Source of the DNA: Vairimorpha necatrix
Taxonomy: Eukaryota
Direction of reading: 5' to 3'
Length of the DNA stretch: 64,000 nt
NCBI GenBank assembly: GCA_036630325.1
Contig: CP142736.1
Coordinates: forward strand, 372,001 to 436,000
The translations under genes and the position numbers were made by a program. The notes under the pieces were generated by a model. The model was given only the letters and a program-made list of their open reading frames with translations, was not told the DNA's origin and did not search any database. The first letter of the stretch is position 1. Each line of letters opens with the position of its first letter. Shown here in pieces: positions 1-63,813 of the stretch.

Positions 1-1
1 A

Positions 2-6440: not shown

Positions 6441-6669
6441 TGTTATGTCTTTTCATAACATAATTTTATTTTATTTATTTTATTTTCCCTCCAAGTTTTT
6501 TAAAAAATTATAAATAAAATTTTAAGAAAGGAGGGCATGATAAATTTAAAAGATAACTATAATCAAAAGAATAAATATAATGACAATAAAAACATTAAAA
6601 ATATAAAATATAACAAAAGCCTCATAGAGGCATATTTAAAAAATGGCCATGTCCCCATGGGACATCTCA
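6441..6669 (+). mobile_element. Solo LTR (peptide-encoding LTR family)
   Basis: TGTTATGTC...GACATCTCA with 5-bp TSD catat. It is absent from the duplicate copy (empty site tcacatatcttttg at ~33731). Micro-ORF from 6537 ends NKSLIEAYLKNGHVPMGHL. Confidence 0.9.
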
Positions 6670-8185
6670 CATATCTTTTGCATCGACTAATTGACACTAA
6701 AATAAAGATAAATTCCTAATCTTTAATTAATAACACTAATAACGAATTAAATCAAACTCATTTATTAATTGCACAGAGTTAATAAAATTTTATATTTTAG
6801 TCGATCTAAAATTTGTTTTATAATTAAAGTAAATAATACGTTTGCATGACAAATTTTTATATATATTCTTGTTTCGAGTGAAAAAGGTTAATTGTTAGAA
6901 TATCAAGAAAACAAAATCAATAATAATATAAAATAAGCATTCATTTGTGATGTGTTGTCATAAATTATAATGTTCATTCTTATAACTTTTATATAGGATC
7001 GACCTTTTTTTGCAATTTCCTCAATATTTTCTTTCGGCGATTTTTATAAAAATAGTGGGAACCTTTTTTTGTATTCAGTCCATTTTTCAAACAAAGTTTT
7101 TTTTCCCATTTCAATTTTTATGAATAGATTGATAAAAAATTAGAACTAAAAACAGTGGAGGCTCATTGAAAAATTACTTTATTTATTGTATTCTTTTTAT
7201 ATTTGTCTTACAATGAAATGTATAAAACAATACAACTTATAAATGTATTATAAAGCAAAAAAAGCGAGAACTGAAAGTTATTCTAATATTATCATTATTG
7301 GAATGTGTACCTTAAAGTTTAACAAAAATATTTCTCGTATCAATATAAAATATCAAACACAGATCTAATTTAATGGACTAATAATGTACATAAGTACAAA
7401 TTTTGTTGTTGATGATGTACACTGTTAGATTCTTAGATCTTATTAATTTTTTTTACTTATGTTAAATTTTTGAATTTTTTATTGACAGGGATTGTTTATT
7501 ACAAGCACTATTTAACAAACAACTTGTTTGTTAGAATGGTTAATTTATAACATTCGGTGGTTTCCTTTAGTTTTTTTATCTTAATTTATCTTGAAAAGAT
7601 ACTATTTTGTCAGTATTAATTGCAAAGGAGTCTTATGATTACATAAAATTGCAAGTTTGCATCCCGGTTAAACATATTTATTCAAAAATTAAGGGTATAA
7701 AATATAATTTTTTAAATCTCAACATCCCCCTCTTAAAAACATTCGTCTATTATCAATTTCAGCTGAGAAGAATGTCGCTTAATAGTTTTGTTTCCTGTCC
7801 TCACCAGATATGTGTTGTTTTCTAAAACTTTATAAATTAAACCTCTAACCTTAAATTTGGGTTCTCCCTTTTTGACACCTGTTTCCGTTTTTATAATAAC
7901 GCTATCCCTCTCTGAAAATTGTGGTTCGGTTTCTCGGTTTTTATTTCTTTCATTGAATTTTAGTATCTCCTCATATTGTTTTTCTTTCACCTTTTGGAAA
8001 TTGGTCGGGTTTAAAGCATCATTCGGAGACATACCTAACTTACTATGATATATATTGTTATATACATCTAAAACCTTTAAAGTTTAATTTTAAGATTTTC
8101 TTTTCCCTCTTGTTTGTATATTCCTTCTTGTATTGTCCTATTAAATCTTTCCACTCTTCCATTGGACTGGTGGTGAAATGGTGAG

Positions 8186-11100
8186 TGTTGAGTGAAATAA
8201 TAATTATTTATAGCCCCTATTCTAGAATAAATGTTTATGGTGGAGAATATGAAAACAGAGATTAGTAGTGAAAATATCTTGCAGGAGCTACAAAGAGCTT
8301 CTTTACTTTCCAGTTTTAATAAATTATCAAATGAGGAAAAAATTGATTATTTTATTCATAAAGCCAACATTGAGATACTAGATTGGCATAGTAAGTTAAT
8401 GAAGGAGAAACGGAAATGTTCATTAACATTTGAAATGTGGAAAGAGTTGGCAGAAACGGAATTTGACTGCGGTACTGGATTGTACGAATTATATACTTTA
8501 AAACAAAAAGAAAACCAAAGTATTGTGGAATTTAATAAAGATGTAGAAAAGAAATGTCTAAAGGAAAATATCAGAAATACGGATAAAAGGAAGATAATAA
8601 GAAATGGAATCCTACCAAGATATAAGGCTATAAAAATGGTATTAACAGGGCAATATGAAATTAATAAAGAATTCCTTGAAATAATTGATGAAATGGAAAA
8701 GGAAAATAATGATATAACAAAAAAAAGACAACCTGCCTCCAATAACATCAACAAAGGATATTCATGTTATTTTTGCCACAAGGATGGGCATATCGCTAAA
8801 GGCTTATTTGCGAAGAAAAAAAGAACTGATGGTAAACAACTACAGTATAAAAGGATAAATGAGATCCACCAAGAAGGCGGAATGTTGGATGCAAACTTTA
8901 TTAACAATAAAGAAGATTTAATATATGTTTATAATGAAAAAATTAATGTAACTTTTGACTCGGGTTCTTACTATAATTTTATGAGTAAAAAGGCTGCTTC
9001 TGAACTAACTTTAAAAATTTATAGAAGTACAGAGGAAATATATTTTTTAACATGTTTAGAGGAAAGATTCGGGATTACAGAATATGTGATATTAGATTTC
9101 TCTTATGGTGGTAAAAGTTATCGTTCTAAATTTTTTATATTCCCTAAGGTGGAAAAATTTAAAATACTTGTAGGAAAAAAGACATTACAAGAAATATTGA
9201 AAAGGGTGTCTAGCAATAGAATTTGTGAAATAAATACGATAAAAGGAGAAAAAATTGTTGAAAAGGTCTATACACTACCAAAAAAGTTAGAAGAAGGAGT
9301 GGAAAAATCTATCAAAGAACTACTAAGGAAAAATTACATAAGAAAATCAAAATCAACGTGGTTGAATAATTTAAGACCAGTAATTAAACCAGATGGTTCT
9401 ATAAGAGTTACTACAAATTTAGTTTCGTTAAACAAATTGGTAGAGCTAGATAATTACTCCTTACCACACATTGATAAGCTTTTATACGGGCTTCGTGGAA
9501 AAAAATATTTTAGTAAATTGGATTTAAAAGATGCATTTTTTTGTATAGAATTAGCGGGAAAAGATAGATATAAGACCGCTTTCAGATTTAAGCACCTATT
9601 ATATGAATGGAACGTTATGCCAATGGGGTTTAAAAATGCTCCGGCAATTTTTCAAAGATTTATAGATGATGTTTTACAAGAAGAAATAGGGAAAAGTTGC
9701 TTCGTGTATGTGGATGACATACTGGTTTTTGGAGAAAACGAGGAAGAACATGATTTTAATTATGAGAAGATCATAACAAAGCTTAAAAGCTATAACTTAG
9801 GTATTAATGAGGATAAAACAATATATAAGGTTAAAGAACTTACCTTTTTGGGACATTTAATAGCATTTAACGAAATTAAGCCAAAAATTACACGGGACCA
9901 AGCAATTAACGATATGAAAAGACCAATCAATAAAAAATCACTGCAAGAATTTCTGGGACTTATTAATTATTATAGAAAATTTATTCCTAATTGTTCAAAA
10001 ATCGGAGGATGTTTATATGATCTTACAAAAAATGATATTCAATTTAATTGGGGGAAGGAACAGGATGCTGCTTTTAATACATTAAAGAAAATTGTATTGT
10101 CGAGCAGTGTGCTTAAACAGCCAGATTTTAGTAAACCTTACATATTAGAAACGGATGCATGTGACTCTGGTCTGGGAGCGATCTTGTCACAAGAAAATGA
10201 AGGGCATGTGTACCCCATCGCGTACGCTTCTAGAAGATTGGTTCCAGCGGAAAGAAATTACAGTATCAGCGAGAAAGAATGTATGGGTGTCCTATGGGGA
10301 ATGGAAAATTTTAGATATTTTTTATATGGAAATGAGTTTAAAGTAATAACTGATCACAAAGCTCTAGAGGTCCTAAATAAAGGCGAAATAAAATCGTTAC
10401 GTATACAAAGGTGGCTTGATAAATTGAGTGAGTATAATTACACGATCGAGTACAAAAGGGGGACAGATATTCCTCACGTCGATTGTTTGTCAAGATCTTA
10501 TCTTAATGAGTTAAATACGGATGAAATAAATATGATTGAATTTAGCGAAGAAGAAAAAAGGTCTATCATAAGGAATAAACATATAGAATTAGTTCACAGA
10601 GGATCAAAAGTTATTGAAAATGAATTAAGGAAAAAATATCATTGGAAAGATATGTCGCATATGGTAAAAACGGAAATTAATAAATGTCTAAGATGTAAGA
10701 TGTACAATCCACAAAGAGGAAAAAAATTTATATTTGTGACAGCATACGAACCTGGCGAAAAGGTAGCTGCCGATATTATAGGACTAATCAATGGAAGCTA
10801 TATAATTACGGCGATCGACTATTTTACAAGGAAAGCATGGGCTAAAGTCATTACTACTAGAGAGAGTAATAAGCTAGTGAAATTTTTTGATGAAGTTTAT
10901 AATGACATAAAGATTAAAATACTAATTCTTGATCAGTCAAAAGAAAATTTGAGTATTGAGGTAAAACAATGGGCAACGAGAAATAATGTTCAAATTCATT
11001 ATATTTTTTCTTTTCATCACCAATCAAACGGAAGAATAGAAAGATTTAATAGGACAATACAGGAAGGTATATATAAAGATAATAGTTTTGGAAATTTGAA

Positions 11101-11519
11101 GACAAAAACTAAGCGTGTACTAGATGTATACAATAATGTTAGACACTCCGCTCTTGGCATGTCGCCAGACGAAGCATGTAATCCTAAGAGAGCTCAGGAG
11201 ATTAAACTAAAACAATTCGAAGAAATCGTAAAATTCAACCAACGACAGAAGAAAAGAGGAGCTGAATTTATTTTTAAAGAGGGAGATAGAGTTATAATTA
11301 GAAGAGAAACCGATTTAACAAAGGGAAAACCTAGATTTGAATCGCAAGGTATAATTATTAATATTTTAGGAAATAATTCTTATAACGTTAAGGTCCATAA
11401 TAAAACTATAAAGCGACATGGCTCGCAACTTAAGCTAATAGTAGAGGATTATTTTGAATGAGGGGGATGTTGAGTGAAATAATAATTATTTATAGCCCCT
11501 ATTCTAGAATAAATGTTTA
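8186..11519 (+). mobile_element. Ty3/gypsy LTR retrotransposon B, single uninterrupted ORF, identical 52-bp LTRs (8186-8237, 11468-11519)
   Basis: 5-bp TSD gtgag (8181-8185 / 11520-11524), PBS tggtggagaat at 8238, PPT gaggggga abutting the 3' LTR. Inserted in the integrase of element A. Confidence 0.97.
8231..11461 (+). CDS. Gag-Pol polyprotein (Gag-PR-RT-RNaseH-IN), single ORF, 1076 aa
   Basis: CYFCHKDGH knuckle, FDSGS protease, MPMGFKNAP/YVDD RT, ETDAC/EKE/TDH RNase H, HHCC plus D-D-E integrase. The RT-RH-IN order indicates Ty3/gypsy. Confidence 0.97.
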   Translation: MFMVENMKTEISSENILQELQRASLLSSFNKLSNEEKIDYFIHKANIEILDWHSKLMKEKRKCSLTFEMWKELAETEFDCGTGLYELYTLKQKENQSIVEFNKDVEKKCLKENIRNTDKRKIIRNGILPRYKAIKMVLTGQYEINKEFLEIIDEMEKENNDITKKRQPASNNINKGYSCYFCHKDGHIAKGLFAKKKRTDGKQLQYKRINEIHQEGGMLDANFINNKEDLIYVYNEKINVTFDSGSYYNFMSKKAASELTLKIYRSTEEIYFLTCLEERFGITEYVILDFSYGGKSYRSKFFIFPKVEKFKILVGKKTLQEILKRVSSNRICEINTIKGEKIVEKVYTLPKKLEEGVEKSIKELLRKNYIRKSKSTWLNNLRPVIKPDGSIRVTTNLVSLNKLVELDNYSLPHIDKLLYGLRGKKYFSKLDLKDAFFCIELAGKDRYKTAFRFKHLLYEWNVMPMGFKNAPAIFQRFIDDVLQEEIGKSCFVYVDDILVFGENEEEHDFNYEKIITKLKSYNLGINEDKTIYKVKELTFLGHLIAFNEIKPKITRDQAINDMKRPINKKSLQEFLGLINYYRKFIPNCSKIGGCLYDLTKNDIQFNWGKEQDAAFNTLKKIVLSSSVLKQPDFSKPYILETDACDSGLGAILSQENEGHVYPIAYASRRLVPAERNYSISEKECMGVLWGMENFRYFLYGNEFKVITDHKALEVLNKGEIKSLRIQRWLDKLSEYNYTIEYKRGTDIPHVDCLSRSYLNELNTDEINMIEFSEEEKRSIIRNKHIELVHRGSKVIENELRKKYHWKDMSHMVKTEINKCLRCKMYNPQRGKKFIFVTAYEPGEKVAADIIGLINGSYIITAIDYFTRKAWAKVITTRESNKLVKFFDEVYNDIKIKILILDQSKENLSIEVKQWATRNNVQIHYIFSFHHQSNGRIERFNRTIQEGIYKDNSFGNLKTKTKRVLDVYNNVRHSALGMSPDEACNPKRAQEIKLKQFEEIVKFNQRQKKRGAEFIFKEGDRVIIRRETDLTKGKPRFESQGIIINILGNNSYNVKVHNKTIKRHGSQLKLIVEDYFE

Positions 11520-14345
11520 GTGAGGTATAATGTAATTCGACATTATTACTTGCTGCCCAACATCTTACTTCTTTACTTAGGTTTTCTTTCGATTGATCTA
11601 AAATTAGTTTATGTATCTTAATTTTTTGATTTATCATATCTAAAAATTTTACAATTTTCTTACTCTCCCTGGAACTTAGTACCTTTCCAAATCCGAATCG
11701 ACTAAAGTAATCAATCCCAGACACGATATATTGGTTGTTAATTGGACCAATAATATCTTTTGCTACTTTCTCTCCAATTGCATGTGACTTTACAAATAAA
11801 ATTCTTTTCCCTCTTTTAGGATTATACATTTTACACCGAATACACCTCTTTAACTCGTTTTTAGTCAATTTTCCCATATCTTTCCAATCGTATTTCTTTT
11901 TAAGTTCATTTTGAACTGCTTTATAACCTCTATGGACAAGTTCTAGGTGTTTATCACGGATAATTTTTCTTTTGTCTTCCTCAGTCATTTCTAATTCTAG
12001 ATTTTTAATCTCTAATATTTCTTGTCTTGGTGATCTGGATAAGCAATCCACATGTGGAATGTTTGTTCCTTTTCTATATACAACACAATAATTATATTCA
12101 CTAAGTTTGTCTAACCATCGTTGGATCCGCAAAGATTTTATCTCTCCCCTATTTAGTGCTTCTAGGGCCTTATGATCAGTGACTGCAGTAAATTCATTTC
12201 CATAGAGGAAATATCTGAAATGTTCCATCCCCCATAACATCGCTAAACATTCCTTTTCGCTGATTCCATAGTTTATCTCAGCAGATAACAATCTTCTTGA
12301 AGCGAAAGCAATTGGTACTGGACCATTTCCATGATCCTGTGAGAGGATAGCTACTATTCCTGACTGGCATGCATCTGTTTCCAAAATATAAGGTTTTTTG
12401 TAATCGGGTTAGGATAGAACCACGCGTGATCTCAATATACTTTTTAATTTCTTAAAAGCTTTTTCTTCTTCCTCTTACACTTAAATACAACATCCTTTTT
12501 AAGTAAATCATACAATGACCCGGCAATGATTGGACATTGTGGAATAAATTTACGATAGTAATTAATCAATCCTAAAAATTCCTCACAAGATTTTCTATTA
12601 TTTGGTCTTTATATATTTTCAATTCCTTGTTCAGCCGAAAATTTCGGCTTTATCTTGTTATATTTAATAACATGGCCTAAAAATTCTATGTTCTCTTTTT
12701 TATGTATAGTCTTTGACTCGTTAATTCGTAGCTCATATTTTTGTAGCTTGTTAATAACCTTTGTATAGCTTGTATCATGTTCTTCTTCATTTCTACCAAA
12801 AATAAGGATGTCATCAACATAGACAAAGCAATTTTTCCCTATTTCTTCTTCAAGGACGTTGTCCATAAACCTTTGAAAAACGGCTGGTGCATTTTTAAAC
12901 CCCATGGGCATTACGTTCCATTCGTATAATAAATGATTAAATCTGAAAGCAGTTTTGTGTTTGTCTTTTTCAGCCAATTTAATTTGAAAAAATCCATCTT
13001 TTAAATCAATTTTTGAAAAATATTTCATGTCTCTAAGACTGAATATAAGTCTTTCAATATTGGGGAGGGAATAATTATCTAGATCTACCAATCTGTTGAG
13101 CGCTATTAAATTCGTAGTAACTCTTATGGATCCATCCGGTTTGATCACTGGCCTAAGGTTATTTAGCCATGTTGAATTAGATTTCCTTATATACCCGTTT
13201 TTTAATAACTCATTTATAGAGTTTTGTATTCCTTCCTCCAATTTCTTTGGTAAACTATAAACGTGTTCTATTACCTTCTCTCCTGGTTTTGTATTGATCT
13301 CACAAATTCTATTGATCGGTTGTCGAAAAACTTTACAAATATCATCTTTTCCTATTAACACTTAAAAATTTTTAACTTTAGGTAAAACATACATTCTGCT
13401 TTTAAATATTCTATTACCATATTTGTATTCCACAATAACATGGTTTTCAACTAGAAATTCTTCTTCAAGACATGTGAAAAATTTCAAAACATTCATATTC
13501 TTATTGAGTTGCAATTTTAAATCATAGATAGCTTGAAGAGAGATAAAGTTGTAGGCCGCACCCGAATCAAAAACCACGGGGACTTTTTTAGTCCCAACAT
13601 AAATAAAATTATTTTTATTCGTAATAAAGCTTTGATCTACTTCCTGACTATCCTTTTCAATCTCATTAATATTCCTTCGATCATCATTAGCCTGTTTATT
13701 ATTTCGATTCGCCCTACAATCCTTAGCTAAATGTCCTGGCCTTCTGCATCTAAAGCATGTATTTGGTTGGTTCTGTTTAGTAAGTCTTAAACCATCCAAC
13801 TTGATATTCAATAATGCTTCGTTCTTCATCTCATTTAATATTTCGTAAAATTCTTTGTTGATCTCATATTGGGTCGTAAGAAAAATTTTACATCATTTTT
13901 AACTTTTTATCTACTCCTGATCTAATAATTTTTCTTCTGTCAAAATTGGAAATTTCATTTTCATTACATTTAGAAACTACATCTTTGATAAAATCAACAA
14001 GTTTTTGTTCTTCCTTTTGCTTCATATTGTAAATGTCAAAAAGCAATGTTTTATTCTCAAATTCTTGTTCCACTTCTTTTTTCCAGATTTCAAACGTTAA
14101 AGCAGCTTTCCTTTTATCTTTAAAAGTCCTACAATGCCAATCTAAAATATGAGAGTTAAGTCTGCTTATAAAAAAATCTAACTTCTCCTCATTGGTCATT
14201 TTTGCCCAACTACTCAGAGCCTCTGCTCTTCTAATTTCTACTATTATATTGTCTTTGTTTATTTCGTTTTTTATATTCTCCACCATAAACATATTTATTC
14301 TAAAATTAAGGGTATAAAATATAATCTTTTAAATCTCAACATTAG

Positions 14346-14692
14346 TGTGGTATAATGGATCATACCACATGATATATAAAACCAATAAATACTTAAACGC
14401 TAATGCTTCTTCGGAACGATCAGTTATGGTCGACTATTATTGGTCAGCCAAATCTTATTTCTTCCTATTGGTTACCATGTATATAAATAAAGAAATTCCA
14501 TGAACAAACATGGTACAACATCAGAACGCAAACAAACACTCTTCTTCTACAAATCAGATAAACAAAACTCTTTCCATAACAATAAACAACCCTTTCACTC
14601 TAACTCTTTTAACTCCGGTTTTCACGGCTCCCCAAACCGTAGCATCATTGAATGCTTTCTTGCTACAGGCAAGCTTCCCGGTAAACACGCCA
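14346..14692 (+). mobile_element. Solo LTR (peptide-encoding LTR family)
   Basis: TGTGGT...ACGCCA, TSD attag (14341-14345 / 14693-14697), CCAAT boxes and TATA. Micro-ORF from 14500 ends NRSIIECFLATGKLPGKHA. Confidence 0.88.
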
Positions 14693-15278: not shown

Positions 15279-15615
15279 TGGCGTAATTGCCGGGAATTGT
15301 GCCAGAGGCAAGAAAGCATTCTAAGATGCTACGGTTATTAGAACCGTTGATTCCCAAGGTAGAGTTTTGTTTAGTGTAAATAGTTTTATTTGAGGCGTCG
15401 TTGCCCTGTTGTGAAGGATAGGAGAGCGTATTAGATTTCTTGTGCATCATATTTATGTTCATAATTTCTTTATTTATAGTTGTTGGTAACCAATAAGAAT
15501 ATATTGTTTCATGATAGACCAATAGACGTCGTGTTTCAAGATGTGTAAGAAACATCGTTGACGTGCTGTTGTTCTATTGGTTACTTATGATCCATGTGGT
15601 AGATATTATACCACA
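15279..15615 (-). mobile_element. Solo LTR (peptide-encoding LTR family)
   Basis: TGTGGT...ACGCCA on the minus strand, TSD tgtat, same CCAAT/TATA layout as 14346. Micro-ORF from 15462 ends NRSILECFLASGTIPGNYA. Confidence 0.88.
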
Positions 15616-40936: not shown

Positions 40937-40943
40937 TGGCACA

Positions 40944-43316: not shown

Positions 43317-43566
43317 TTGTTTTTTGTTTATGCAGAATTTGTTTATAAATATAAACATAATCAAAAAAAAATAAAAAAACATTAGTTTATATTATTTAGA
43401 TTTTACTGTAACGAAACAGAAAGTGTATTTTGTAAAATTAATATTTTATATATAATATATTTGTCATTATATTAATTATTTACATAAATATACTTCATTA
43501 TAAATTTTCTTAGAAATTTATGATGATTTTTTAATTTTTTGTTTATGCATATTTTTTACCCCATAA

Positions 43567-53990: not shown

Positions 53991-56900
53991 TACACTTTGT
54001 TCGCCGGGTAAATTGCCCCATAAACTATCGCGCGCTCTATAATTAAATATTAGGAATAAAAATAAGTTTACTGTGATTGTACCCCTTCAAAAACATAATT
54101 ATGCTTCTGTTTCTGTTGTGTACATTCAACATAATTACACAGCGATTGTATTTCCTTGATTAGCCTATAAGTTCCATTTAAGAATATTAAATATGTAAAT
54201 AATTTATTTTTAGCTTTGTTATATACAAAAAAATAAGTTAGTTTGAATCATAAGGTAAGTGATTATATTCTTTGTTACTTGCCCGGTACACTTATAGTAT
54301 ATGCTATCCTATATGCAATTTTAAGAGGGTCATATCTTTCTGATTTCTTTTAGAACTTTGTTCATAATACTTATGTATCATTTCGTCTTCCCACATCTAA
54401 TCTTCATATTTATGTATGCATTATTCTCTTTTTTATGCGCTCCCAGCTATTTTTGCTTCAAAGACAACAAAAACTTTTCAATGCCTTTTGCTTTGTCTTA
54501 ATAATGCTATTTTATAGCAAAAAAACATGATGTGTACAAATAAATGTGTAGTATGTGATAATATAATATGATTTTAAATCATTCTTCTTAATGTATTTCT
54601 ACTACGATTTGTCTCATGTATTCGTCTTTATACCAATTAGAATGCGCAATTGAGCGTTAAATATGATTGTTCTATTAAAATCATGCATTTTTTATATGTA
54701 TTAACTGGGTAAATGCACCGATATTTATCCTAAAAAATTTACTTGTATATAAAGAGGCTTTACATATCCCGTAATAATAAAATATTCATAAAACGAAAAA
54801 CTAAAATTGTGTAAATAAAGATAGATTTAAAACAAATCTGTAAAATCCGACTATAAAGGATATATTGTGCAAAAAAAACAGTAGCATATTTACAAATTTT
54901 AAGTCAATTATAGAATGTAAAAATTAAAAAAAGCTAGACTAAGTGCGAAAAGCATGGGAAACCAACTTCACAATATGCATGATAATTCAAATTTGCTACT
55001 AGTGACGAGGTGGTATAATAAAAAACGAAACTATTTACTACACTACATTAAATTGTTAACAATGATATTACATAGATATAACTGAGGCTATGTTGCTTTT
55101 TTGATTTCATAAGTTTATATCAACTAAGAATTGTCAATCAAATATAGTAAAATATTAAAATGTTCGATGTTGGAAAATGAATCGCACAAAATGGAATATG
55201 AAAGTGATACAAAACTGGGATTTATAAAATACATGGAAATAACACATGACGTGTAAATAAATTTTCGCAGATGAATAGTTTCGTTTGAAGAATAATGTAA
55301 ACCTTTATACATATTTTAGACAAATGTCTTTATATCAATAGGATAAATCATCGCAATTTGACCTATATTTTATTGATGAAGAAAAAAATCATAACTAATA
55401 TTAAAACTTGTTAAAGTTTACTTCCAAATTTTTTCTTAATTAAAAACCAAGACCAGATAGGGAGTAGATTAAGATCAATTGAAATGTAGTATTGAAGTAT
55501 GCATTAAAATGAGTTGTTATATGGCAAATGATTTAAAATAAAGATTGCATAGAAAATAGTCTATTTAAGAGGAATATCTCAAATGAAAAGAGACAATGGT
55601 GTTATGCTGAAAACTTACCATTTCCTATAATGTTTACTATTAATAAATAAAAGGCACTTCGGTTGCATATCATATGCAACACCAAGATTCGAGATATGGA
55701 AATAACCTTCTGATTAAGAATGAATGATTACCTCTGATAACTTATTTCACGCCAAATATTGAATAGCTTTAATACAAATGAGTAAGTTTATAACATGTGA
55801 TATAATAAAGAGCATTGGAAAAAATAATAAGATAGAAATATATATTTCTGAGTTGTAAGTATAAATATCGGGGATGCATTGTGACATGTGAAGGGACTTT
55901 ATTTTATAAAAAATTATATAATGTTAAAAACTTCTTCTTCATACCAAAAAGCTGTTTAATTGAAATTTATCAAAAACATTAGGGCTACAAGTAAAAGTTT
56001 AATTAAGTTGTTTGTTTTGTGTCTATTGGTGTTTAAATTTTTGTGTCCTTTCACATTTTCATTACCTAAACGTATTCTCAAAAGATGACCAAACAACCCT
56101 CAGAAGGTGTTCACTTTATTTTTTCAAGCCCCTGAAAAGAAGGAGCAAAGAAGAGACAAAAATTACTAAGCACTTATGATATAATTTGAATAACAAATAA
56201 ATATGTTGTGGTGTTACAACCAGGGAGGCGGCCTGTTTGTAAGTAGCACTCGATGGTGCTCCTCCCCGCAATATTAATTTGATTATTATTTTAATCATGT
56301 TTATTGTTTATTTTAAGAGACTCCATTTTTTCTCTTCTTAGTTCCATCTTGATGTGGGGGTAAAATAAAAAGAAAATATTTATAGTAAAATATTTTCTAG
56401 AAAATTCATTTGGAGGGAAAAATAAATAAAAATAAAAATAATGTGGTAATTAATACCACATACTACCTCCTCCAGCAGATTTGACGTTCCTAATATGTGT
56501 CCATCCATAATCACCAGAATCCTTTACTTCCTACTTCCAATATCCTTCGAGGTTTTAATTCGTATTTAGGGCCTAACTTATTGGCATTGAACTTAACCTT
56601 ATATACTAGGTCCACAAAAGTAAATTTTTTATCGAACGCTTTGTGCCTCAATTTTAATTAAATTTTCTTTTTTAAATTATATCTATCACAAAAATTTCTT
56701 CCTAAGATCACGTTCATTGGTGATGTCCCTATTGTTCGGTTGTAATTAATATTTAGAACATCCTCCGATCTTTTAACTACATTACATGTGTGTTTTCCTT
56801 TATTTAAAGCCATAGTAAAGGCTATTGTTTTATTTAATCGTTCGGAGACTCCATTACTACTTGGAGTATACTCTGGAACAAGTATTTGCCTTAAGTTATT

Positions 56901-58349
56901 TTCATGGCAGTATTTAGTAACTAGCATGTTATCAAATTGTTTTCCATTGTCAAAAATTGTATGCTTAGGCGGACTATATTCTCTTGTCCACTCCTGTATC
57001 GCTTGAATCACGTCACTTGATTTAATTCTCTCAAAGAAGTATAGTTAGGTAAATCTTGAACAAATGTCCGTTATTGACAATATATTCCTTGTCTCTTTTA
57101 CACAGTCATTTTGAAACTCCGAGACGTTAAATGGACCGAAAATGTCCATCGAGATTCTTTCAAACTTACTTTCTGATATGATTTTATTCTCGACATTATG
57201 CTTATACCTGCTAATTTTTAGTCTGTAGCACATTCCGCAAGTATTGGTTATTTCAGTTATTAATTTGAATAAGTTTCTTATCTCGAGATAGCTTTTAATG
57301 TTGTTATATAGGGTAATTATTCCTCTATGTCCAGATATTTTATGGATTTGTTCAAATAGATATCTGTATTTAGTTTTGTTAAATATTGATTCGTTTTGTT
57401 TATCGAGTTTAAACCCTCCGTCACGAGCTCTTATTGCACATTTATCTATCAATTCATTATACCTGGACTTAATATCTCCATCTTGAACATATAAGCATCG
57501 CGATAGTTTATCGGCAATTATGTTTTTATCTCCATCAATATGAACAATCTTATGGTTGAACTCGTTCATTAACAGTCGCCATCTTTCAAGTCTAGATGTC
57601 TTCTTATGGCTATCATGTACACAGTTTCTGCTGTCTGTGTGTATATCAGTGTAGCAACCTTGGACGATGGTTTGAAATGCATAGATGCTAAGACTATGGC
57701 CAAGTATTCTTTTTCTACTATTGTATAGTTTAGTTCATGACCATTTACATTCTTGGAGTAATATCCTACTACTCGGTCATTTTGTTTAAGGACTGCACCG
57801 AGTCTTATATCAGAAGCATCACACTCTAGTATAAACTTTTCATTATGATTAGGAAAGGAGAGTTTCGCCTCTACAGATATGTCTTTCTTAACTTTATTAA
57901 TTATTGATGTTAACTTGTTTATTGTTATTATCCATAAAAATTAGGGGTTACATATAAAATATTTAAAAATTATCAACAATTGACTTTAACTTTTTATTTA
58001 AATGTATTTTTTTATTGTCTTGTTTCAGCATATTAGTTATTTCATAAACTCTAGTCGATAAGTTTGGTATGAATTTTCTATACCAGTTTAAAACACCTAT
58101 TAACTTTTGAACATCCTTTCTATTTTTTATTTCCTTAGTAAATATTTTATTCTCTAAACTCTTTAGGTCGGGGTATATCCCTTCTTTATTAATCCTATAA
58201 CCTAGTACATTTATTTCTTCTGGGAAGAACTTTGACTTTTCAAAATTTATTTTAACGCTCTTTTCGCGTAGTTTATCTAAAACGGTCTCTAAGGTTTTAA
58301 TATGGTCTTCCTTGGTTTGGGTATATACGACTATGTCGTCGATGTAAAC

Positions 58350-58653
58350 TGTGGTATTATAAACACCACAAATTATTTATATTTATTTTATCAATTTTCC
58401 CTTTTTGGAAAATAGACCATTCGACCGGTCTATTCCAAAAATCGAATATTTATTTCTTTTTTGCCCCGAGCCCCACACCAGATAACGAAATTAACAGGCG
58501 ATCAGTACCCTTGGAAAAATAGACCAAGGAAGGGCTACCAAGCCAGGGATCAGTATTTGTTACAGATGCCTAACGAGGCTCATCTAATACTAATAAAACC
58601 ATTAACTATATCGAATTATATTTATCCAGAGGTGGCTCCTCTGGGCTACGTCA
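58350..58653 (+). mobile_element. Solo LTR inserted in the RT of the 56-62 kb element
   Basis: TGTGGT...CTACGTCA with perfect TSD taaac at the VYIDD codons. Motif NYIELYLSRG lies near the 3' end (out of frame with the nearest ATG). Confidence 0.88.
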
Positions 58654-59589
58654 TAAACGAAGCAGTTAGGTACCTCATGTAAAATATTTGCAATGTATCT
58701 TCGAAACATCTTTGGACCTTTTTATACCGAAAGGGATTCTTTTGTATTGGTATTGACGTCCCAATAACATAAATGAAGTAAATTTTTTACTTTTCTCGCT
58801 TATTTGTATCTGATTGAACCCATTTTATAGGTCTAATTGACTAAAACATGTGTTTTCTCCCATTATTTGCAAGCAGTCATCTATCTTGGGTAATATCCAA
58901 AGGTCATCTTCTATGTGTTCGTTTATTTTCTTATAATCTACGACCAATCTAAAGTCATTATTCCTTTTCTTTAGGAAGAATGCAGGGCTAGAGAATGGAG
59001 AGTTACTTACCTCAATTATGTCCTCTTTCAGTAGTCTTGAGACTTCTGCTTTCCCTTGAAATAGTATTTATGTGGGACACCATATCCATGCGATTGGCTA
59101 CTTTCATAGTGTTTTTAATACTAAACGATGCGGGTTCCGCCTGCATATTTTTAAATTTAATATTCATAACCATGTAATCCTTCATTTTTTTATTAAATTT
59201 TCCTTCGCTTTCATGACAAGACAGATCTTATCATCAAGACAATCGTCTAATAATTCGTCAGTAGTTTTTTTTGCAGCCTATCAGCATTACCAACTTATCG
59301 TTTATAATTGGGGTTTTCTGCGAGAAATCGATTTTGCAGTTATTATTTTCAAAAAACTGTAGGCCCAGTATAAGGTTGACGGGTAACCGCTTAAGGACGT
59401 AAAATTATATAGGGTAATCATTCTCTCTGATTCTTACTATTTCTCTTGCGACTTTCGTTGAAACTTCTTTGTCACTATTTCCGAAAAAGAACCTAATCGG
59501 TTTCGTTTCTTCTTGTTTCAATCCTAACTTCTTGGCTACATCTTCTAACACAAGTTTTATCTGAACCATTATCCAACATAAAAATTTCC

Positions 59590-61219
59590 GGCTCTAGGGC
59601 CTATTCCCGGGCATTTTTTTGTTTAAAGGTCCCCCTTTAAACAAAAAAATTATAAAAAAAAAGAAATCTCAATTATTTATTTCGAATTAAAAGTTTTAAG
59701 AGAGTTAAAAGGGCGTCTTTATAGGCTTTGGAATCATGAGTTTTTAAATTTCTTCTCCTCCAAACATATTCTTCTATATACTCTGGCATTGCTTAACCTG
59801 GTATTCTTTTCCTCGTTTTGATGTCCGATTTGAAATGAGACCACTCACATACTATTAAATTAGTGTGGTCTCCATCAGCATTGGTGAATCCTTCCTCATG
59901 GTTCACGATTTTATGTACTCCGCCAATCCCATCAACAGCGTATGGGTAGGATCTGTGCCCATCTGTTTTTATTACAGACATGGGACTAATATTTGTAGAG
60001 AAAAGGTCGAAGAATGTTTCCTTTTTTCTATTTGGTAAAACTTTAAGAACTAGTTTTCTAGTTTTTTCTTCTACTGCGCCAATTATCCAAGTAGCTTTAC
60101 TAATTGAATCATACATTTCAGATGGTGACTTAATAAGTTTTCCTTTTATTATAACACTCTCATCGACTTGTATTGGGTGCTCTGGCCCCAATTTCTTCCA
60201 TATATTCTTATTATCTTCAGTTATTACTTCTATAATATTCCTTTTAATTCTTTTTATAGTATTTAAAGAAACCGAAGTATTTTTATTAATATTATATTCA
60301 TAATTTTTTTTGAACCATGAATCATCATCATATATATAAAAGAATTTTATTTAATTTTTTGCCCCTCTTTTTTGTGATTTTGTAAAATCTAAACTTCTTA
60401 TTATAGCTTATTGTGTTATTAAAATAGTGTTTTCGGATTTAATGCTTTCGTTTGAATATCGTAAGTGCGTACACTATATATAAATGCATTTTTATTTTAA
60501 TTCTTTGTTTTGTAAAACACAGTTCCAAAATATCGTCAGAATCGTTTTTTAGAATTTATTTGACCCTTCCACGAAAAATTGTAAAAACATCTGAAATTTT
60601 TTTTTTGAATGTAAGTGTCAAATTTTGAACGTATAAACATAATAAAGTTATCAAATTAGATTTTATAGAATTATTTGATTTGAATTCTATATTCAAGTTT
60701 CGCATTGAAAATAATTTTAATGTTGTTAAACATTGCATTCCCCTTTTCATTTCAAACCAAATATGACAACTTAAAAAAAAATTAAAGGAGGGACATATCA
60801 TGAAACAAAACATTTAAATCCCGTTTTCAAAACGGGAAAGCATACGCTAGTATATTATAAATAAGTATTCGCTTGTGTCTATCTTTGGACTTGAAATTTT
60901 TAGCCCCTCAAAAACTGATTTGGATTTTCTACACAATAATTTATACATCTGAATCGAAAACCGTTCGAATAAGAAATATCATGTTCCAAAACCATGCTCT
61001 CATAACATTTCGTGCATGTTTTAAATTCTTCAAGTAAGCCATGCCTTTGAATAAAGGCCATGGCTGCTTCATTTGAAAAAAATGTCAGATCTCGAATTTC
61101 TTGGTTCTTCTTCAAAATTATTCATTTTTTAGGGGCTGTAAAAATTTCCCAGTTTAGGGCCTATTCCCGGGAAATGCCGTCTTTTTTACGTTCATTACCC
61201 GGGAATAGGCCCTAGCGCC
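59590..61219 (-). mobile_element. Merlin transposon inserted in the retroelement protease region
   Basis: TIR ggctctagggcctattcccggg / cccgggaataggccctagcgcc and perfect 8-bp TSD aaatttcc. Transposase fragments IQVDES, WIIGAVE, KTDGHRSY, VNH and HTN. Confidence 0.93.
60322..60850 (+). mobile_element. Non-autonomous Helitron
   Basis: 5' TC(ATCATC)ATATATATAAAA and 3' CTAG. Hairpin cccgtttt-c-aaaacggg (60820-60836) lies 10 nt before CTAG. Inserted between A and T with no TSD; removal restores the Merlin frame LFIIYSWFKK. Confidence 0.8.
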
Positions 61220-62465
61220 AAATTTCCTTATTACTTCCTATTTCTCCTGCTATTTGTTGACTTCTAGAAGTGCTTCGTCTTGATTTCTTGATAATAAAAG
61301 ATTTTCTTTCCTTCTTCTCGTTCTACCTTTTTAAGTAACAGTCCCGCGTATCGTGGGATTTGACTCGGCGCACAGAACACCATTTATTTGTTTCCACATA
61401 TCTGCCTGTTTCTGGGGGAATTACTTGTTTAATTGCACGTCTCTCACTGGGGGTTATACGTGTTTGTGCGTGAGTTCCCCGCAACTCAATGCCTTCTTCT
61501 AATTTCTGAAGGTACTTAAGTAGATCGATTGTGGAGTTGTTGTCCACCCTTTCAAATAACTCAATAGCCGTGCAAGGGCCCAATCCTCCGTTAAATGCCT
61601 CGTGTAGTCTGGCATTAGACTCCTTCTTGTTCAGTCCCGTTATCATTCCATAAATTAGAATTATTCTCTCAATCTCTTCGTAATAGTCCAAATTTTTTTC
61701 AAAATCAACTTGTCTAATCGTTTCTAATTTTGTCATAAGTAAGGTGACATCGTTCCTAGAGTACATTATGTTCAGTAGTTCCTGTCTCAAACTTTTGTAG
61801 GAATTGCTCGTTTACTTGTTTTCGAGCCTTGAATCTTCTATCATTGAATGACAAATCATCCCATCTGTTCGTCTGTCCACTCGTTAGCACTAGACAATGA
61901 CTCAAATCTTTCGAGATGCTTTAAATTTCAATCTCTCTTAACGTTCTTGATTTTTTTTTTTATTTTACTACCACTGTAGTTCCTTTAATCTTTTTGTCGA
62001 ATAGCGTAAATTCTTCGCTATCGACCATACGGCTTTCATTATTCCGTTTTTCTTCATAAGCACTGGTCTCTCATTAACACTTAATGAGCTCTTTGGGTTT
62101 TATTACCAGGGAGGCGGCCTGTTTGTAAGTAACATTCTAAGATGCTCCTCCCTGCGATATATTTTTAATTATTATAATAAAAAGATTGTTTATTTTTACT
62201 TTTTGACTTTAGAGACTTCATTTTCTCTCTTCTTAGTTTCATCTTTAGGTGGGGTAAAATAAAAAGAAAATATTTGGAGGGAAAATGAAGTAAAAATAAA
62301 AATAATGTGGTTAAAAATACCACATTTGTATTTAGATACAAAAAATAATTTTTATTAATTCTAATGATTATAGTTATTGTCACAGTTCGGAGCGAACGCC
62401 AAGGGTAAAAAATTAAAAAAAATCTTTCAGTGAGGGGCGAACCAGAAAATAAGAACAAAAAAATG

Positions 62466-63813
62466 GGTTAAGTTGCGATGTTGCCTCCCTCCACCCCCCA
62501 AAAAAATAAAAAAAGGGGAAAAAATAAAAAAAGACAAAACCAAATCTTATTCAATTAATTCTAAATCAAATTCAGGGATTGTATCGTAATTTAAAAACCA
62601 TATATTTTGAACTTCAAAAAAGCATAACATTCTTTCAAGTAGTGATTCTCTAATAATTAACTTAAAACGAGCTATATAAAGTTTTCGAATTAGGTTTTTT
62701 AAAGAACCATGGCTTGTTCCTTCTTTGCGCAATTCCCTTTTAATTACAGACAACATTCCAACAATTGTTTGGGTGTGGGCGCCTGTTGTTGGATTTACAA
62801 AATTTTGGTTATAATTTACAGTAAAATGTAAATAGTTATAATCCGGACATAGTTCCGAAAACCCTTCATAACCCCGCCAACAATCAGTAATAATTGTAGA
62901 TCCGGGTTCGATTTTTCGTTTTATTAAATCGACAAGAGTAGTTCTTGATCGATTTTCAACAATTTCGAAAAAAAAGAATTGCTGTCTCCTCTTACAACTT
63001 CACCAACAGCCCAAACTTGGTATTAATGGATTCAACCGTTATGGTTTTTACTTTAACAAGCAATGTTTCGTCTATTTCAACTACGCAATTTAAACCTCCT
63101 ATGGTTTTGTTTTGAAGGTAGTTGAAATAGGATAAGAATACAGCGTTATTAAAACGCGTAAACCAGCGAGATACGGTACTACTATCTATATCCAATTCGA
63201 TAATGGCCGAAACATTCCTGACGTAGCCATGCTGGTAAAAATGTTCCAGCATGTTGTCGTGGTCGTTTATATTAAATTTTTTATTTACAATGTTTTGTTT
63301 CTCGTTCCTCTGTTTTCTCATATTCATCGTTAGTTCGTATTTTAGGTATGGGTAAGGGCAAAATTTATATTTATAGTTTTCTTTGTTTGTTTGTAAACAA
63401 TTCGTTGAGATCAAACAAACAAAGAAACAAAAAAAAATGAATTACTTGTGGGATACCACAATTGCTTACGCCTTTAACCCATTTACACAGCAAAATTAAA
63501 AGATCTTCGATATCTAATCTAGAACTTTTAAAGATGCTTTCTTTGTAAATGTTACCTTCGTTTGAGCATTTTCTTCCATTTTGTCGTAAGTAACAACGAT
63601 ATTTGTCCAAATTATTTCTAATTTTGGTCATGAGTGTCATGTGCTTATTGCACATTGGTACCTTTAATATATTTTTTTCAAGAAGAAATAAAAATAATTA
63701 CTCTTATTTATATATTAATTTTCTAAAATTCTTTATGTTCATTTTAAAGGTATAATTTTATTCCTTTTTTTTATTTTTTTAGGGGTGGGGGGGGGTAACA
63801 TCGCAATTTAACC
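62466..63813 (-). mobile_element. Merlin transposon, degenerate
   Basis: TIR ggttaagttgcgatgtt / aacatcgcaatttaacc and 6/8 TSD. Transposase fragments VEIDETLL, ITDCWRGY and HTQTIVG. Confidence 0.9.
63219..63460 (-). mobile_element. Solo LTR inserted in the Merlin transposase
   Basis: TGTGGTATCCCACA...CTACGTCA, TSD gcaat/ggaat. Removal restores KGVSN|VSAIIELDID. Micro-ORF from 63327 ends DNMLEHFYQHGYV. Confidence 0.85.

What the first reader, a model, noticed from the sequence alone, without database searches (positions are those of the whole stretch)
6441..63460. A dispersed family of LTRs that encode a conserved micropeptide motif in fixed phase at the LTR 3' end
Seen: ten LTRs, most barely alignable to each other as DNA, carry an N/K-rich micro-ORF ending in one motif. 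The copies read: 6441-6669 NKSLIEAYLKNGHVPMGHL; 14346-14692 NRSIIECFLATGKLPGKHA; 15279-15615(-) NRSILECFLASGTIPGNYA; 24278-24649 INNYLEQYYKNGHVPRIHD; 51927-52176 ICSFIEQQLRFGHLIRGYD; 56207-56460(-) GRSTIECYLQTGRLPGCNT; ~62093-62324(-) GRSILECYLQTGRLPGNKT; 58350-58653 TINYIELYLSRG; 63219-63460(-) HDNMLEHFYQHGYV; 53635-53990 NKSYLDISSSQG (weak). In the first five, the E codon starts exactly 14 codons + 1 nt before the LTR end, and the frame has no stop inside the LTR. Pairwise changes include synonymous ones (GCT/GCC, GGT/GGC, TGC/TGT). The 56-kb and 62-kb LTRs each have one premature TAA where the other has a sense codon, and the indel between them keeps frame. Established: R-U5 and the PBS of LTR retrotransposons are normally an untranslated leader. 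Inference: here R-U5 is protein-coding, either as the Gag N-terminus read through the PBS or as a stand-alone LTR peptide. This may reflect the very short 5' UTRs of microsporidian mRNAs. Each solo LTR would then be a portable promoter-plus-peptide cassette.
Basis: partly seen in the sequence, partly recalled or inferred. Interest (0 to 1): 0.9.

Follow-up and report, generated by a model that had tools for sequence, protein, structure and literature searches.

The report
Microsporidian LTRs that encode Gag's start
In this microsporidian parasite, the terminal repeats of gypsy-type jumping genes carry a real protein-coding stretch with a conserved motif, most likely the first part of the element's Gag protein, so the usually untranslated leader is translated here.

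Summary
The window is Vairimorpha necatrix (name on the window's own protein). The LTRs are real: TG..CA ends, 5-bp target duplications, and one empty site in a duplicated segment.

The micro-ORF looks coding:
- It starts at the first ATG behind a TATA-like box, and 8 of 11 LTR ATGs also have a CCC/GGG signal.
- It has no stop before the LTR end in 7 of 10 LTRs.
- Peptide similarity appears in one frame only.
- pN/pS is 0.61, against 0.96 and 1.13 in the control frames.
- The same motif occurs in V. ceranae ORFs whose tails diverge at the LTR end.

It is most likely the start of Gag, as in yeast Ty1, not a stand-alone peptide. In the one full-length element, the LTR frame, the 41 open codons after the LTR and the Gag frame coincide once a 1-nt gap is allowed for. 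A second family in the window has 52-bp LTRs and a Gag-Pol ORF that starts inside the LTR and reads through the PBS.

No intact fused copy, transcript or peptide was seen. "Fixed phase" holds for 5-6 LTRs. 53635 is not a member and 58350 is doubtful.

The parts
6441..6669 (+). Solo LTR (229 bp), TSD CATAT. ORF runs from ATG 6537 to the LTR end (44 codons), motif SLIEAYLKNGHVP, phase 1.
   Evidence: Empty site in the duplicated copy.
14346..14692 (+). Solo LTR (347 bp), TSD ATTAG. ORF ATG 14500 to the LTR end (64 codons), motif RSIIECFLATGKLPGKHA, phase 1.
   Evidence: Most other copies in runs X1/X2 carry a -1 indel at 14506 and a +1 indel after 14543 (table 4).
15279..15615 (-). Solo LTR (337 bp), TSD TGTAT, related to 14346. 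Motif RSILECFLASGTIPGNYA, phase 1.
24278..24649 (+). Solo LTR (372 bp), TSD 4 of 5. ORF ATG 24526 (41 codons), motif NYLEQYYKNGHVP, phase 1. Very abundant family in run X2.
51927..52176 (+). Solo LTR (250 bp), TSD TATAT. ORF ATG 52026 (50 codons), motif SFIEQQLRFGHLI, phase 1.
56207..56460 (-). 3' LTR of a degenerate Ty3/gypsy element, preceded by the purine tract GAGGAGGTAGTA. Motif STIECYLQTGRLPG; its frame ends exactly at the LTR end (phase 0). One premature TAA.
62094..62324 (-). 5' LTR of the same element. It is 1 nt shorter than the 3' LTR between the motif and the CA end. Motif SILECYLQTGRLPG. One premature TAA.
61971..62093 (-). 41-codon open frame that starts at the first base after the 5' LTR. 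It is in the phase the 3' LTR predicts and in the same frame as the Gag ORF 61811-61323.
   Evidence: P 0.05 for a given frame.
56461..61811 (-). Degenerate Gag-PR-RT-RH-IN body of the 56-62 kb element. It is interrupted by a Merlin/IS1595 transposon piece (about 59796-60350) and by the solo LTR 58350-58653.
58350..58653 (+). Solo LTR (304 bp), TSD TAAAC. Doubtful motif (NYIELYLSRG) in phase 2; the long open frame (79 codons) is in phase 1.
63219..63460 (-). Solo LTR (242 bp), TSD 4 of 5, inserted in a Merlin/IS1595 transposase gene. Motif NMLEHFYQHGYV, phase 1, five codons shorter.
53635..53990 (+). Solo LTR-like insertion (356 bp), TSD TACAC. Unrelated as DNA and without a convincing motif. 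Not counted as a member.
8186..11519 (+). Comparison element: a 3334-bp Ty3/gypsy element with identical 52-bp LTRs (8186-8237 and 11468-11519). TSD GTGAG, PBS 8238-8249, PPT 11460-11467. Its 1076-aa Gag-PR-RT-RH-IN ORF (8231-11461) has its first ATG inside the 5' LTR and reads through the PBS.
   Evidence: joint with 52 shared letters.
7669..14341 (-). Related, degenerate 56-bp-LTR element that hosts the element above. 3' LTR 7669-7724, 5' LTR 14286-14341, PBS 14274-14285. Its Gag starts MFMVEN, as in the nested element.
   Evidence: the uninterrupted form is seen in X1/X2 contigs.

Best explanation
These are LTRs of Ty3/gypsy retrotransposons of the microsporidian Vairimorpha necatrix. In them the whole R-U5 part is an open reading frame.

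Proposed mechanism. Transcription starts a few bases upstream of the first ATG, behind a TATA-like box and often a CCC/GGG signal, as at ordinary microsporidian genes. Translation starts at that ATG. It runs through a fast-evolving N/K/R-rich stretch and a conserved block of about 19 residues (S-[IL]-[IL]-E-x-[FY]-L-x-x-G-x-[LIV]-P). In a full-length element it then leaves the LTR, crosses the primer-binding region and continues into Gag. The motif is therefore the conserved part of an N-terminal extension of Gag. Solo LTRs keep the promoter and the headless ORF, which then runs into whatever lies next to them.

Shown: the LTRs and their insertion signatures; the open frame; the coding-type substitution pattern; conservation in a second species; and a family in the same window whose Gag-Pol ORF starts inside the LTR and includes the PBS.

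Inferred: the transcription start; actual translation; continuity into Gag in intact copies of the motif families; and what the motif does. Small RNA hairpins overlap the motif and probably add a second, cis-acting constraint.
For: 1. Real LTRs: TG..CA ends, 5-bp TSDs, an empty site, and an LTR pair around a Ty3/gypsy body.

2. Coding signature.
- Mean BLOSUM62 per residue between LTR groups is 1.56 in the claimed frame, against 0.02 and -0.21 in the other two.
- For the five LTRs anchored only by their 3' end it is 1.32, against 0.08 and -0.70. None of 3000 column shuffles reached 1.32 (maximum 0.96).
- pN/pS is 0.61 in the claimed frame, against 0.96 and 1.13 in the control frames. For 14346 vs 15279, pS is 0.39 and pN 0.12.
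- Arg is CGT or AGG and Leu is CTT or TTA between LTRs that do not align as DNA.

3. Open frame to the LTR end: Fisher P 9e-6.

4. Start context: a TATA-like box lies 16-48 nt upstream in 9 of 11 LTR ATGs. CCC/GGG lies within 30 nt in 8 of 11, against a background of 0.177 (P 1e-4). This matches microsporidian gene starts with 5' UTRs under 7 nt (PMC2803860, abstract and passages).

5. Second species: ORFs from V. ceranae and from unnamed assemblies keep RSI[IL]ECFLATG..P.KH[AT]. Their tails become unrelated exactly at the LTR end.

6. Continuity.
- No LTR contains a stop for the ORF.
- In the 56-62 kb element the 3' LTR puts the motif frame in phase 0.
- The 5' LTR has a 1-nt gap before its end.
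- The frame starting at the first base after the LTR is open for 41 codons (P 0.05) and is the frame of the 162-codon Gag ORF.

7. Proof of principle in the same window: in the element with 52-bp LTRs, the Gag-Pol ATG is at 8231, six bases before the LTR end at 8237. The PBS TGGTGGAGAATA is translated as part of M-V-E-N, which is conserved in a 51%-identical relative.

8. Most other copies of the 14346 family differ by a -1 indel at 14506 and a +1 indel after 14543, both inside the ORF. Together they keep the motif in frame (table 4). Whether both lie on the same contigs could not be checked.

9. Precedent: the Ty1 PBS lies in the GAG ORF (PMC4974528, passages).
Against: - No intact full-length copy of a motif family is in the window. 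The only full-length one has stops and frameshifts, and its present 5' LTR frame stops five codons after the LTR.
- The 1-nt gap is the more parsimonious reading, but two substitutions are possible instead.
- No TGG-type PBS is recognisable after that LTR.
- Among predicted proteins of 113-2000 aa, the motif was found only in the window's own chimeric gene model P0001. This rests on three searches: the single 14346 peptide, the profile against 5.8 billion clusters, and the profile against 1.84 billion representatives. Both word-based searches warn that finding none is weak evidence.
- All six solo contexts and all four database ORFs end in unrelated tails, so none shows the 5' LTR-internal junction.
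- Phase at the LTR end is not uniform: 1 in six LTRs, 0 in the 56/62-kb pair, 2 for the 58350 motif.
- The U5 ends are more structured than shuffles (mean z -1.96), so part of the conservation may be RNA-level.
Confidence: 0.6

Rival explanations
1. The LTR ORF is translated but is separate from Gag. It would be a short leader peptide or upstream ORF that begins in R, ends a few codons after the LTR in the full-length element, and acts on its own or controls Gag translation.
For: The coding signature is the same as for the main reading. No long predicted protein carries the motif. The present 5' LTR frame of the 56-62 kb element stops five codons after the LTR. Database ORFs with the motif are 51-74 aa.
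Against: The LTR supplies no stop codon, so the product would have no defined end in solo or 3' LTRs. The database ORFs end in unrelated tails, as expected of solo LTRs, not in a shared short tail. The ancestral phase, the 41 open codons and the Gag frame coincide in the one full-length element. With the very short 5' UTRs of microsporidia (PMC2803860), re-initiation at a distant Gag ATG is hard to picture (inference).
Confidence: 0.2
2. The block is not translated. It is a cis-acting nucleic-acid signal at the U5 end, such as hairpins for reverse-transcription initiation or strand transfer plus the integrase att site, and it only looks like a peptide.
For: Each LTR has small hairpins in its last 70 nt. 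The z scores run from -4.4 to +0.1, mean -1.96, P 0.0015. One stem shows a two-sided change: AGCAU/AUGCU in 14346 against AGCAC/GUGCU in 56207. The last roughly 10 nt resemble each other across families.
Against: The hairpins lie in different registers and use different arms in different families, whereas the residues stay aligned. Similarity is confined to one reading frame and exceeds all 3000 column shuffles. Synonymous sites are nearly saturated (pS 0.76) while pN is 0.47, and the control frames give ratios near 1. The frame is open from an ATG in a gene-start context. No Rfam family matches in the window.
Confidence: 0.13
3. The similarity is chance plus selection by eye, acting on N/K-rich, AT-rich sequence.
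For: The alignment was chosen by a reader looking for peptide similarity. 53635 and 58350 are weak. With all ten LTRs anchored at the 3' end, no frame stands out.
Against: Five LTRs aligned only by their independently defined 3' ends give the signal. None of 3000 sets of random window segments reached it. A profile search of 1.84 billion proteins recovered only LTR-derived ORFs. The motif recurs in V. ceranae.
Confidence: 0.02

Closest known systems
Ty1/Ty2 (Pseudoviridae, Ty1/copia) of Saccharomyces cerevisiae
   Same: GAG translation starts upstream of the PBS, so the PBS lies inside the GAG ORF (PMC4974528, passages). That the Ty1 GAG ATG lies in U5 of the 5' LTR is my recollection and comes from no call.
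   Different: Ty1 is a copia-type element with pol order IN before RT. By recollection, only about a dozen codons lie in its LTR and a 5' UTR of about 50 nt remains. Here the elements are Ty3/gypsy, 41-64 codons (all of R-U5) are coding, and a motif is conserved across LTR families that do not align as DNA.
Ty3/gypsy (Metaviridae) LTR retrotransposons, e.g. yeast Ty3
   Same: Single Gag-PR-RT-RH-IN order, TG..CA LTRs, 5-bp TSD, PPT and tRNA-type PBS.
   Different: In Ty3 the PBS segment is adjacent to an untranslated 5' UTR (PMC4974528). Here the leader is coding.
MMTV sag, a protein-coding gene inside a retroviral LTR (recalled, no call)
   Same: It is a precedent for an LTR that carries a coding sequence.
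   Different: sag lies in U3, has its own stop and is an accessory gene. Here the ORF lies in R-U5, has no stop and is most likely part of Gag.
Ordinary microsporidian gene starts
   Same: TATA-like box, CCC/GGG signal and an ATG almost at the transcript's 5' end (PMC2803860, abstract and passages).
   Different: Here this layout is built into a mobile element's terminal repeat.

Membership tests
LTR retrotransposon (solo LTRs and full-length elements) | Terminal TG..CA and a 4-6 bp target-site duplication | tested here: met
   All ten have TGT..CA. The 5-bp TSD is perfect in six and matches 4 of 5 in three cases. One empty site was found.
LTR retrotransposon (solo LTRs and full-length elements) | Two LTRs in direct orientation flanking gag-pol, with a PPT before the 3' LTR and a PBS after the 5' LTR | tested here: inconclusive
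   The LTR pair 56207/62094 flanks an RT-RH-IN body, with a purine tract before the 3' LTR. No TGG-type PBS is recognisable after the old 5' LTR. All of these features are met in the 52-bp-LTR element.
Ty3/gypsy (Metaviridae) | Pol domain order PR-RT-RNase H-IN, with gypsy-type RT_RNaseH and Integrase_H2C2 domains | tested here: met
   Pfam RVT_1, RT_RNaseH, Integrase_H2C2 and rve occur in that order in ORF 8231-11461. The same domains occur in pieces of the 56-62 kb element.
Elements with gag starting in the 5' LTR (Ty1-like layout) | The first gag ATG lies inside the LTR and the ORF is continuous through the PBS | tested here: met
   This is met for the 52-bp-LTR family: ATG 8231, LTR end 8237, PBS 8238-8249, and an ORF of 1076 aa.
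Elements with gag starting in the 5' LTR (Ty1-like layout) | The same layout for the motif-bearing LTR families | tested here: inconclusive
   The frames coincide after allowing for a 1-nt gap in a degenerate copy. No intact copy was available, and no long predicted protein carries the motif.
Protein-coding sequence under purifying selection | Frame-specific residue conservation, pN below pS, and an open frame | tested here: met
   The sample is small: 7-9 sequences and a block of 15-19 codons.
Expressed peptide | A transcript 5' end upstream of the ATG, ribosome occupancy, or detected peptides | not testable with these tools
   No run on record as RNA was listed for the stretch. Only contigs of two runs could be laid.
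Known structured RNA family | A match to an Rfam model | tested here: not met
   There were 0 matches at gathering score in the whole window.

The most novel reading that the evidence does not exclude
Microsporidian LTR retrotransposons have adapted to a host whose mRNAs have almost no 5' UTR by abolishing the untranslated leader. This window shows two routes. One shrinks the LTR to about 52 bp, so that the Gag ATG sits at the LTR-PBS junction of a 3.3-kb element that is 97% coding. The other turns all of R-U5 into an N-terminal extension of Gag. Its conserved S-I-I-E-C-F-L-x-x-G-x-L-P block would be a new functional Gag module, kept across families and species and overlapped by U5 hairpins (dual coding). 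Thousands of solo LTRs would then scatter ready-made promoter-plus-start-codon cassettes through the genome.
Probability: 0.45. Interest if true: 0.7.

Novelty: new variant of a known kind. Interest (0 to 1): 0.58.

Why it matters
- It would show how a retroelement's obligatory leader (R-U5-PBS) is reconciled with a host translation system that uses almost leaderless mRNAs. It also gives a concrete, testable case of overlapping protein and RNA constraints in U5.
- It matters for annotation. Solo-LTR ORFs are already deposited as "hypothetical protein" (P0003, V. ceranae), and one is spliced into a gene model named "reverse transcriptase" that is really a Merlin transposase with an LTR in it (P0001).
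- By my recollection, LTR finders use a default minimum LTR length of about 100 bp. If so, they will miss the 52-bp-LTR elements and microsporidian retroelement content is under-counted.
- My literature searches listed no paper describing coding LTRs in microsporidia. The library lacks most subscription papers, including the original Nosema bombycis LTR-element description that I recall. Supplements were not opened.

Tried and rejected
- Whole genome: none is held for this window, so a genome-wide LTR census and a search for intact copies were impossible.
- Metagenome contigs: three scans got no answer from the machine.
- Viral contigs with the Gag-Pol protein and with P0002, and genome contigs with P0002: no relatives. 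The motif alignment was too weakly conserved for a locus scan.
- Sequencing runs: no RNA holder was listed. Laying contigs of X1 and X2 on 6001-26000 confirmed the nesting and the LTR length, but gave no readable LTR-internal junction for the motif families. Most loose ends were not shown.
- tRNA genes for matching a PBS: none in the window.
- Protein atlas with the 14346 ORF: no usable hit. Pfam on the Gag pieces: nothing.
- An idea that the motif is related to the N-terminal helix of Merlin/IS1595 transposases arose because the 63219 ORF runs into one. I rejected it: the LTR is a simple insertion, and removing it plus one TSD copy restores the transposase frame.
- Tf1-like self-priming in the 56-62 kb element: by eye, the sequence after the LTR is roughly complementary to a stretch in R. 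I did not pursue this, because the copy is too decayed to judge.
- One common hairpin register for all families: rejected, because stems differ in position.
- The third short-LTR end at 18750-18801(-) has no second copy in the window, so its 3' boundary and phase are not established.


Full report
**What the window is.** The window has 28% G+C and holds compact, intron-poor genes: a MutS homologue, a RhoGEF-CNH protein, a ubiquitin hydrolase, Vid24 and Yip1. A profile search returned the window's own gene model P0001, which NCBI and UniRef label Vairimorpha necatrix. The published V. necatrix assembly has 28.3% G+C (PMC12449221, Table 1 passage).

**Are the ten stretches LTRs?** Yes.
- All begin TGT (eight begin TGTGGTAT or TGTGATG) and end CA.
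- Six carry perfect 5-bp target duplications, and three cases match 4 of 5.
- The 6441 LTR lies in a segment duplicated at 27307-34620. The second copy lacks exactly the LTR plus one CATAT, so this is a recent insertion.
- 56207-56460 and 62094-62324 are the two LTRs of one old Ty3/gypsy element on the minus strand. They are 82% identical over the aligned stretch with its flanks, and a purine tract precedes the 3' LTR. RT, RNase H and integrase pieces lie between them.
- The other eight are solo LTRs.
- As DNA, only 14346/15279 and 56207/62094 align well (z 25 and 34). A loose group (6441, 24278, 51927, 56207/62094, 58350, 63219) shows mostly weak similarity (z 1-8). The 14346 pair aligns with none of the others (z below 3). 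53635 aligns with nothing.

**Is the motif there, and in fixed phase?**
- The E codon begins 43 nt before the LTR end in 6441, 14346, 15279, 24278 and 51927. It begins at 28 nt in 63219 (same phase, five codons fewer), at 45 nt in 56207 and at 41 nt in 58350.
- Phase is therefore fixed in 5-6 of 10 LTRs.
- In 58350 the motif sits in a 26-codon frame, while a 79-codon frame in phase 1 abuts the LTR end. I count that copy as doubtful.
- I do not count 53635 as a member.

**Is it coding?** Several independent lines say yes.
- Open frame: a frame open for 24-98 codons abuts the 3' end of each LTR. Against first-order Markov simulations, single P values are 0.01-0.38. Fisher combined P is 9e-6, or 5e-5 with one LTR per alignable pair.
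- Start context: in seven LTRs the frame starts at an ATG and reaches the LTR end 28-64 codons later, counting 15279 from the ATG homologous to 14346's. A TATA-like box lies 16-48 nt upstream in 9 of 11 LTR ATGs. CCC or GGG lies within 30 nt upstream in 8 of 11, against 0.177 of random 30-mers of the window (P 1e-4; 6 of 9 independent families, P 0.002). These 11 ATGs include two from the short-LTR family.
- That is the layout of microsporidian gene starts. 5' UTRs are under 7 nt, a CCC-like (rarely GGG-like) motif lies just upstream of the ATG, and TATA-like promoters were suggested for N. ceranae (PMC2803860, abstract and passages).
- Frame-specific similarity: mean BLOSUM62 per residue between LTR groups is 1.56 in the claimed frame and 0.02 and -0.21 in the others. 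That gave 1.32, against 0.08 and -0.70. None of 3000 column shuffles (maximum 0.96) and none of 3000 sets of random window segments (maximum -0.06, compared with 1.46 for the four independent LTRs) reached the observed value.
- Codon positions: between-group differences are 244, 232 and 303 of 476 at positions 1, 2 and 3.
- pN/pS is 0.61 in the claimed frame (pS 0.76, near saturation) and 0.96 and 1.13 in the control frames. For 14346 vs 15279, pS is 0.39 and pN 0.12. For 14346 vs 56207, pS is 0.72 and pN 0.32.
- Between 14346 and 56207, which do not align as DNA, Arg is CGT against AGG and Leu is CTT against TTA.
The sample is small.

**Beyond this genome.**
- A profile of the nine peptides was searched against 1.84 billion representative proteins. 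It found two proteins at E up to 0.001: P0001 (the window's own) and P0002, a 51-aa ORF from an unnamed metagenome contig of 1802 bp.
- A word-based search among 13-112 aa proteins gave three more, at E 0.03 to 1.1. One is named "hypothetical protein [Vairimorpha ceranae]".
- All four database ORFs keep RSI[IL]ECFLAT(G/A)..(P/S).KH(A/T). Their N-terminal parts differ from the window's copies, and their tails become mutually unrelated at exactly the residue where the LTR ends.
- The LTR family and its motif are therefore shared by two Vairimorpha species, and these ORFs come from solo or 3' LTRs.

**Gag N-terminus or stand-alone peptide?** Direct proof needs an intact full-length copy, which I could not obtain. 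Three observations favour Gag.
- No LTR contains a stop for the ORF, so its end is set by what follows.
- The 56-62 kb element gives a frame argument:
  - In the 3' LTR the motif frame ends exactly at the LTR end (E plus 15 codons plus 0).
  - The 5' LTR is 1 nt shorter between the motif and its CA end (ACC-CA against ACCACA). This moves its true end to 62094.
  - The frame that starts at the first base after the 5' LTR (62093) is open for 41 codons (P 0.05 for one given frame). It is the same frame as the 162-codon Gag ORF 61811-61323 (62093 - 61811 = 282).
  - In between lie about 53 codons with stops, next to an A run.
  - The present 5' LTR frame stops after five codons, but before the 1-nt loss the LTR ORF and the downstream frame were one.
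That alternative is less parsimonious but not excluded.
- The window holds a second kind of Ty3/gypsy element in which the layout is plain (next paragraph).

**The 52-bp-LTR elements.**
- The element at 8186-11519 has identical 52-bp LTRs (8186-8237 and 11468-11519).
- It has a GTGAG target duplication, the PPT GAGGGGGA directly before the 3' LTR and the PBS TGGTGGAGAATA directly after the 5' LTR.
- Contigs of run X1 loop from 11467 back to 8186 with 52 shared letters. Contigs of X1 and X2 bridge 8182 to 11522, which is the uninterrupted host element.
- Its single ORF (8231-11461, 1076 aa, with RT-RNase H-IN domains by Pfam behind about 385 residues of Gag-protease region) starts at an ATG inside the LTR. 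It has a second ATG made of the LTR's last A plus the TG of the PBS. Its stop codon overlaps the PPT. About 97% of the 3334-bp element is coding.
- The host element (7669-14341, minus strand, 56-bp LTRs) starts Gag with the same MFMVEN. The next in-frame Met is 31 residues on, and the two Gag regions are 51% identical over residues 1-134. Gag therefore begins at the LTR-PBS junction and the PBS is translated.
- In this family the LTR's last base is codon position 1, the same phase as in the five phase-1 motif LTRs. If their PBS also starts TGG right after CA, the junction codon is ATG in frame. That is a prediction, not an observation.

**Evidence against the Gag reading.**
- Among proteins of 113-2000 aa, neither the 14346 peptide (7 candidates, none scoring) nor the profile (3901 candidates, only P0001) found a Gag or Gag-Pol carrying the motif. 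The search of representatives found none either.
- The tools warn that this is weak evidence. Cluster representatives or gene models may start downstream, and intact copies may be rare or collapsed in assemblies. It is still the main reason my confidence is 0.6 and not higher.
- No TGG-type PBS follows the old 5' LTR. A hairpin, CTCATTAA..TTAATGAG, lies there instead.

**The RNA-structure rival.**
- The last 70 nt of the ten LTRs fold better than shuffles. The z scores run from -4.4 to +0.1, mean -1.96, P 0.0015.
- One small hairpin overlaps the S-I-I-E-C codons and another overlaps the G-x-x-P codons or the bases just before the LTR end.
- In the 14346/56207 group the first stem changes on both sides (AGCAU/AUGCU to AGCAC/GUGCU) and becomes G-U in 62094.
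- The stems sit in different registers in different families, whereas the residues stay aligned. Synonymous sites are free to vary. No Rfam family matches.
- I conclude that structure is a real second constraint, as expected for U5, and not the source of the peptide-like pattern.

**Further hint.** Most other copies of the 14346 family in X1 and X2 lack one base at 14506 and have one extra base after 14543 (table 4). Both changes lie inside the ORF and together leave the motif in frame. By my reading of the window sequence, the 12 codons between them are open in either version. Whether both changes lie on the same contigs could not be checked.

**The 63219 case.** Its ORF runs 75 codons past the LTR. 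This is because the LTR sits in a Merlin/IS1595 transposase gene (Pfam PF12762). Taking out the LTR and one copy of the target duplication joins ...VKGVSN to VSAIIELD... in frame. The public gene model P0001 splices part of the LTR ORF into that transposase and is named "reverse transcriptase".

**Comparison and novelty.**
- It works like yeast Ty1, where the PBS lies in the GAG ORF (PMC4974528, passages). That the Ty1 ATG lies in U5 is my recollection.
- By domain order and Pfam families these elements belong to Ty3/gypsy.
- New here are the extent (all of R-U5, 41-64 codons), a motif conserved across LTR families that no longer align as DNA and across two species, and the association with a host that has almost no 5' UTRs.
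- My seven answered literature searches listed nothing that describes this. The library lacks most subscription journals, and supplements were not opened.
- I rate it a new variant of a known kind, with interest 0.58. It is real and instructive. The principle has a textbook precedent, and expression and continuity remain to be shown.

Noticed in passing
window 8186-11519 (+); relatives at 7669-14341 (-) and about 18750-20274 (-): Ty3/gypsy elements with LTRs of only 52-56 bp and a total length of 3334 bp. About 97% of the element is one ORF. The start codon lies in the 5' LTR and the stop codon overlaps the PPT. These are far below the roughly 100-bp minimum LTR length that, by my recollection, LTR finders use by default. 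How R, the promoter and the poly(A) site (AATAAA at LTR positions 41-46) fit into 52 bp is unexplained.
   Followed up: partly
window 1-7556 and 27307-34620: A segmental duplication of about 7.5 kb at 95-100% identity. It includes a gene with a 33-bp tandem repeat (574-978 and 27880-28284). A third, more diverged partial copy lies at 36859-37632. The 6441 solo LTR was inserted after the duplication.
   Followed up: partly
window 62547-63697 (-) and 59796-60350 (-): Two Merlin/IS1595-type (ISXO2-like DDE) transposase remnants. One is interrupted by the 63219 solo LTR, and the other is inserted in the 56-62 kb Ty3/gypsy element. The public gene model for the first (P0001) is named 'reverse transcriptase' and splices LTR sequence into the transposase.
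   Followed up: partly
window 14341-14346: The 14346 solo LTR is inserted at the very first base of the 5' LTR of the minus-strand short-LTR element. That element's flanks (ACTAA and ACCGG) do not form a target duplication, which suggests recombination between copies.
   Followed up: no
window 62056-62085 (-): A perfect 8-bp hairpin, CTCATTAA-GTG-TTAATGAG, lies a few bases after the 5' LTR of the 56-62 kb element, where a tRNA-type PBS would be expected. By eye, the bases after the LTR are roughly complementary to a stretch near the second ATG of the LTR ORF, which is reminiscent of self-priming elements such as Tf1. The copy is too decayed to judge.
   Followed up: no
window 14346-14500 and 15463-15615 (-): The U3 parts of the 14346/15279 LTRs share islands (TGTGGTATAAT, ACCACATG, several CCAAT/ATTGG boxes, TATAAATAAAGAAATT) between unalignable stretches. 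These are candidate promoter elements.
   Followed up: no
window 24278-24649: This LTR family has by far the highest summed contig depth in run X2 (about 120,000, against 12-60 for neighbouring single-copy bins). It may be the most abundant repeat of the organism in that sample. Depth from contigs is not a copy number.
   Followed up: no
window 38804-46116: Three host genes are packed with 7-bp and 184-bp spacers: a MutS homologue (+), a RhoGEF-CNH protein (-) and a ubiquitin hydrolase (+). This is typical microsporidian compaction next to repeat-rich DNA.
   Followed up: no
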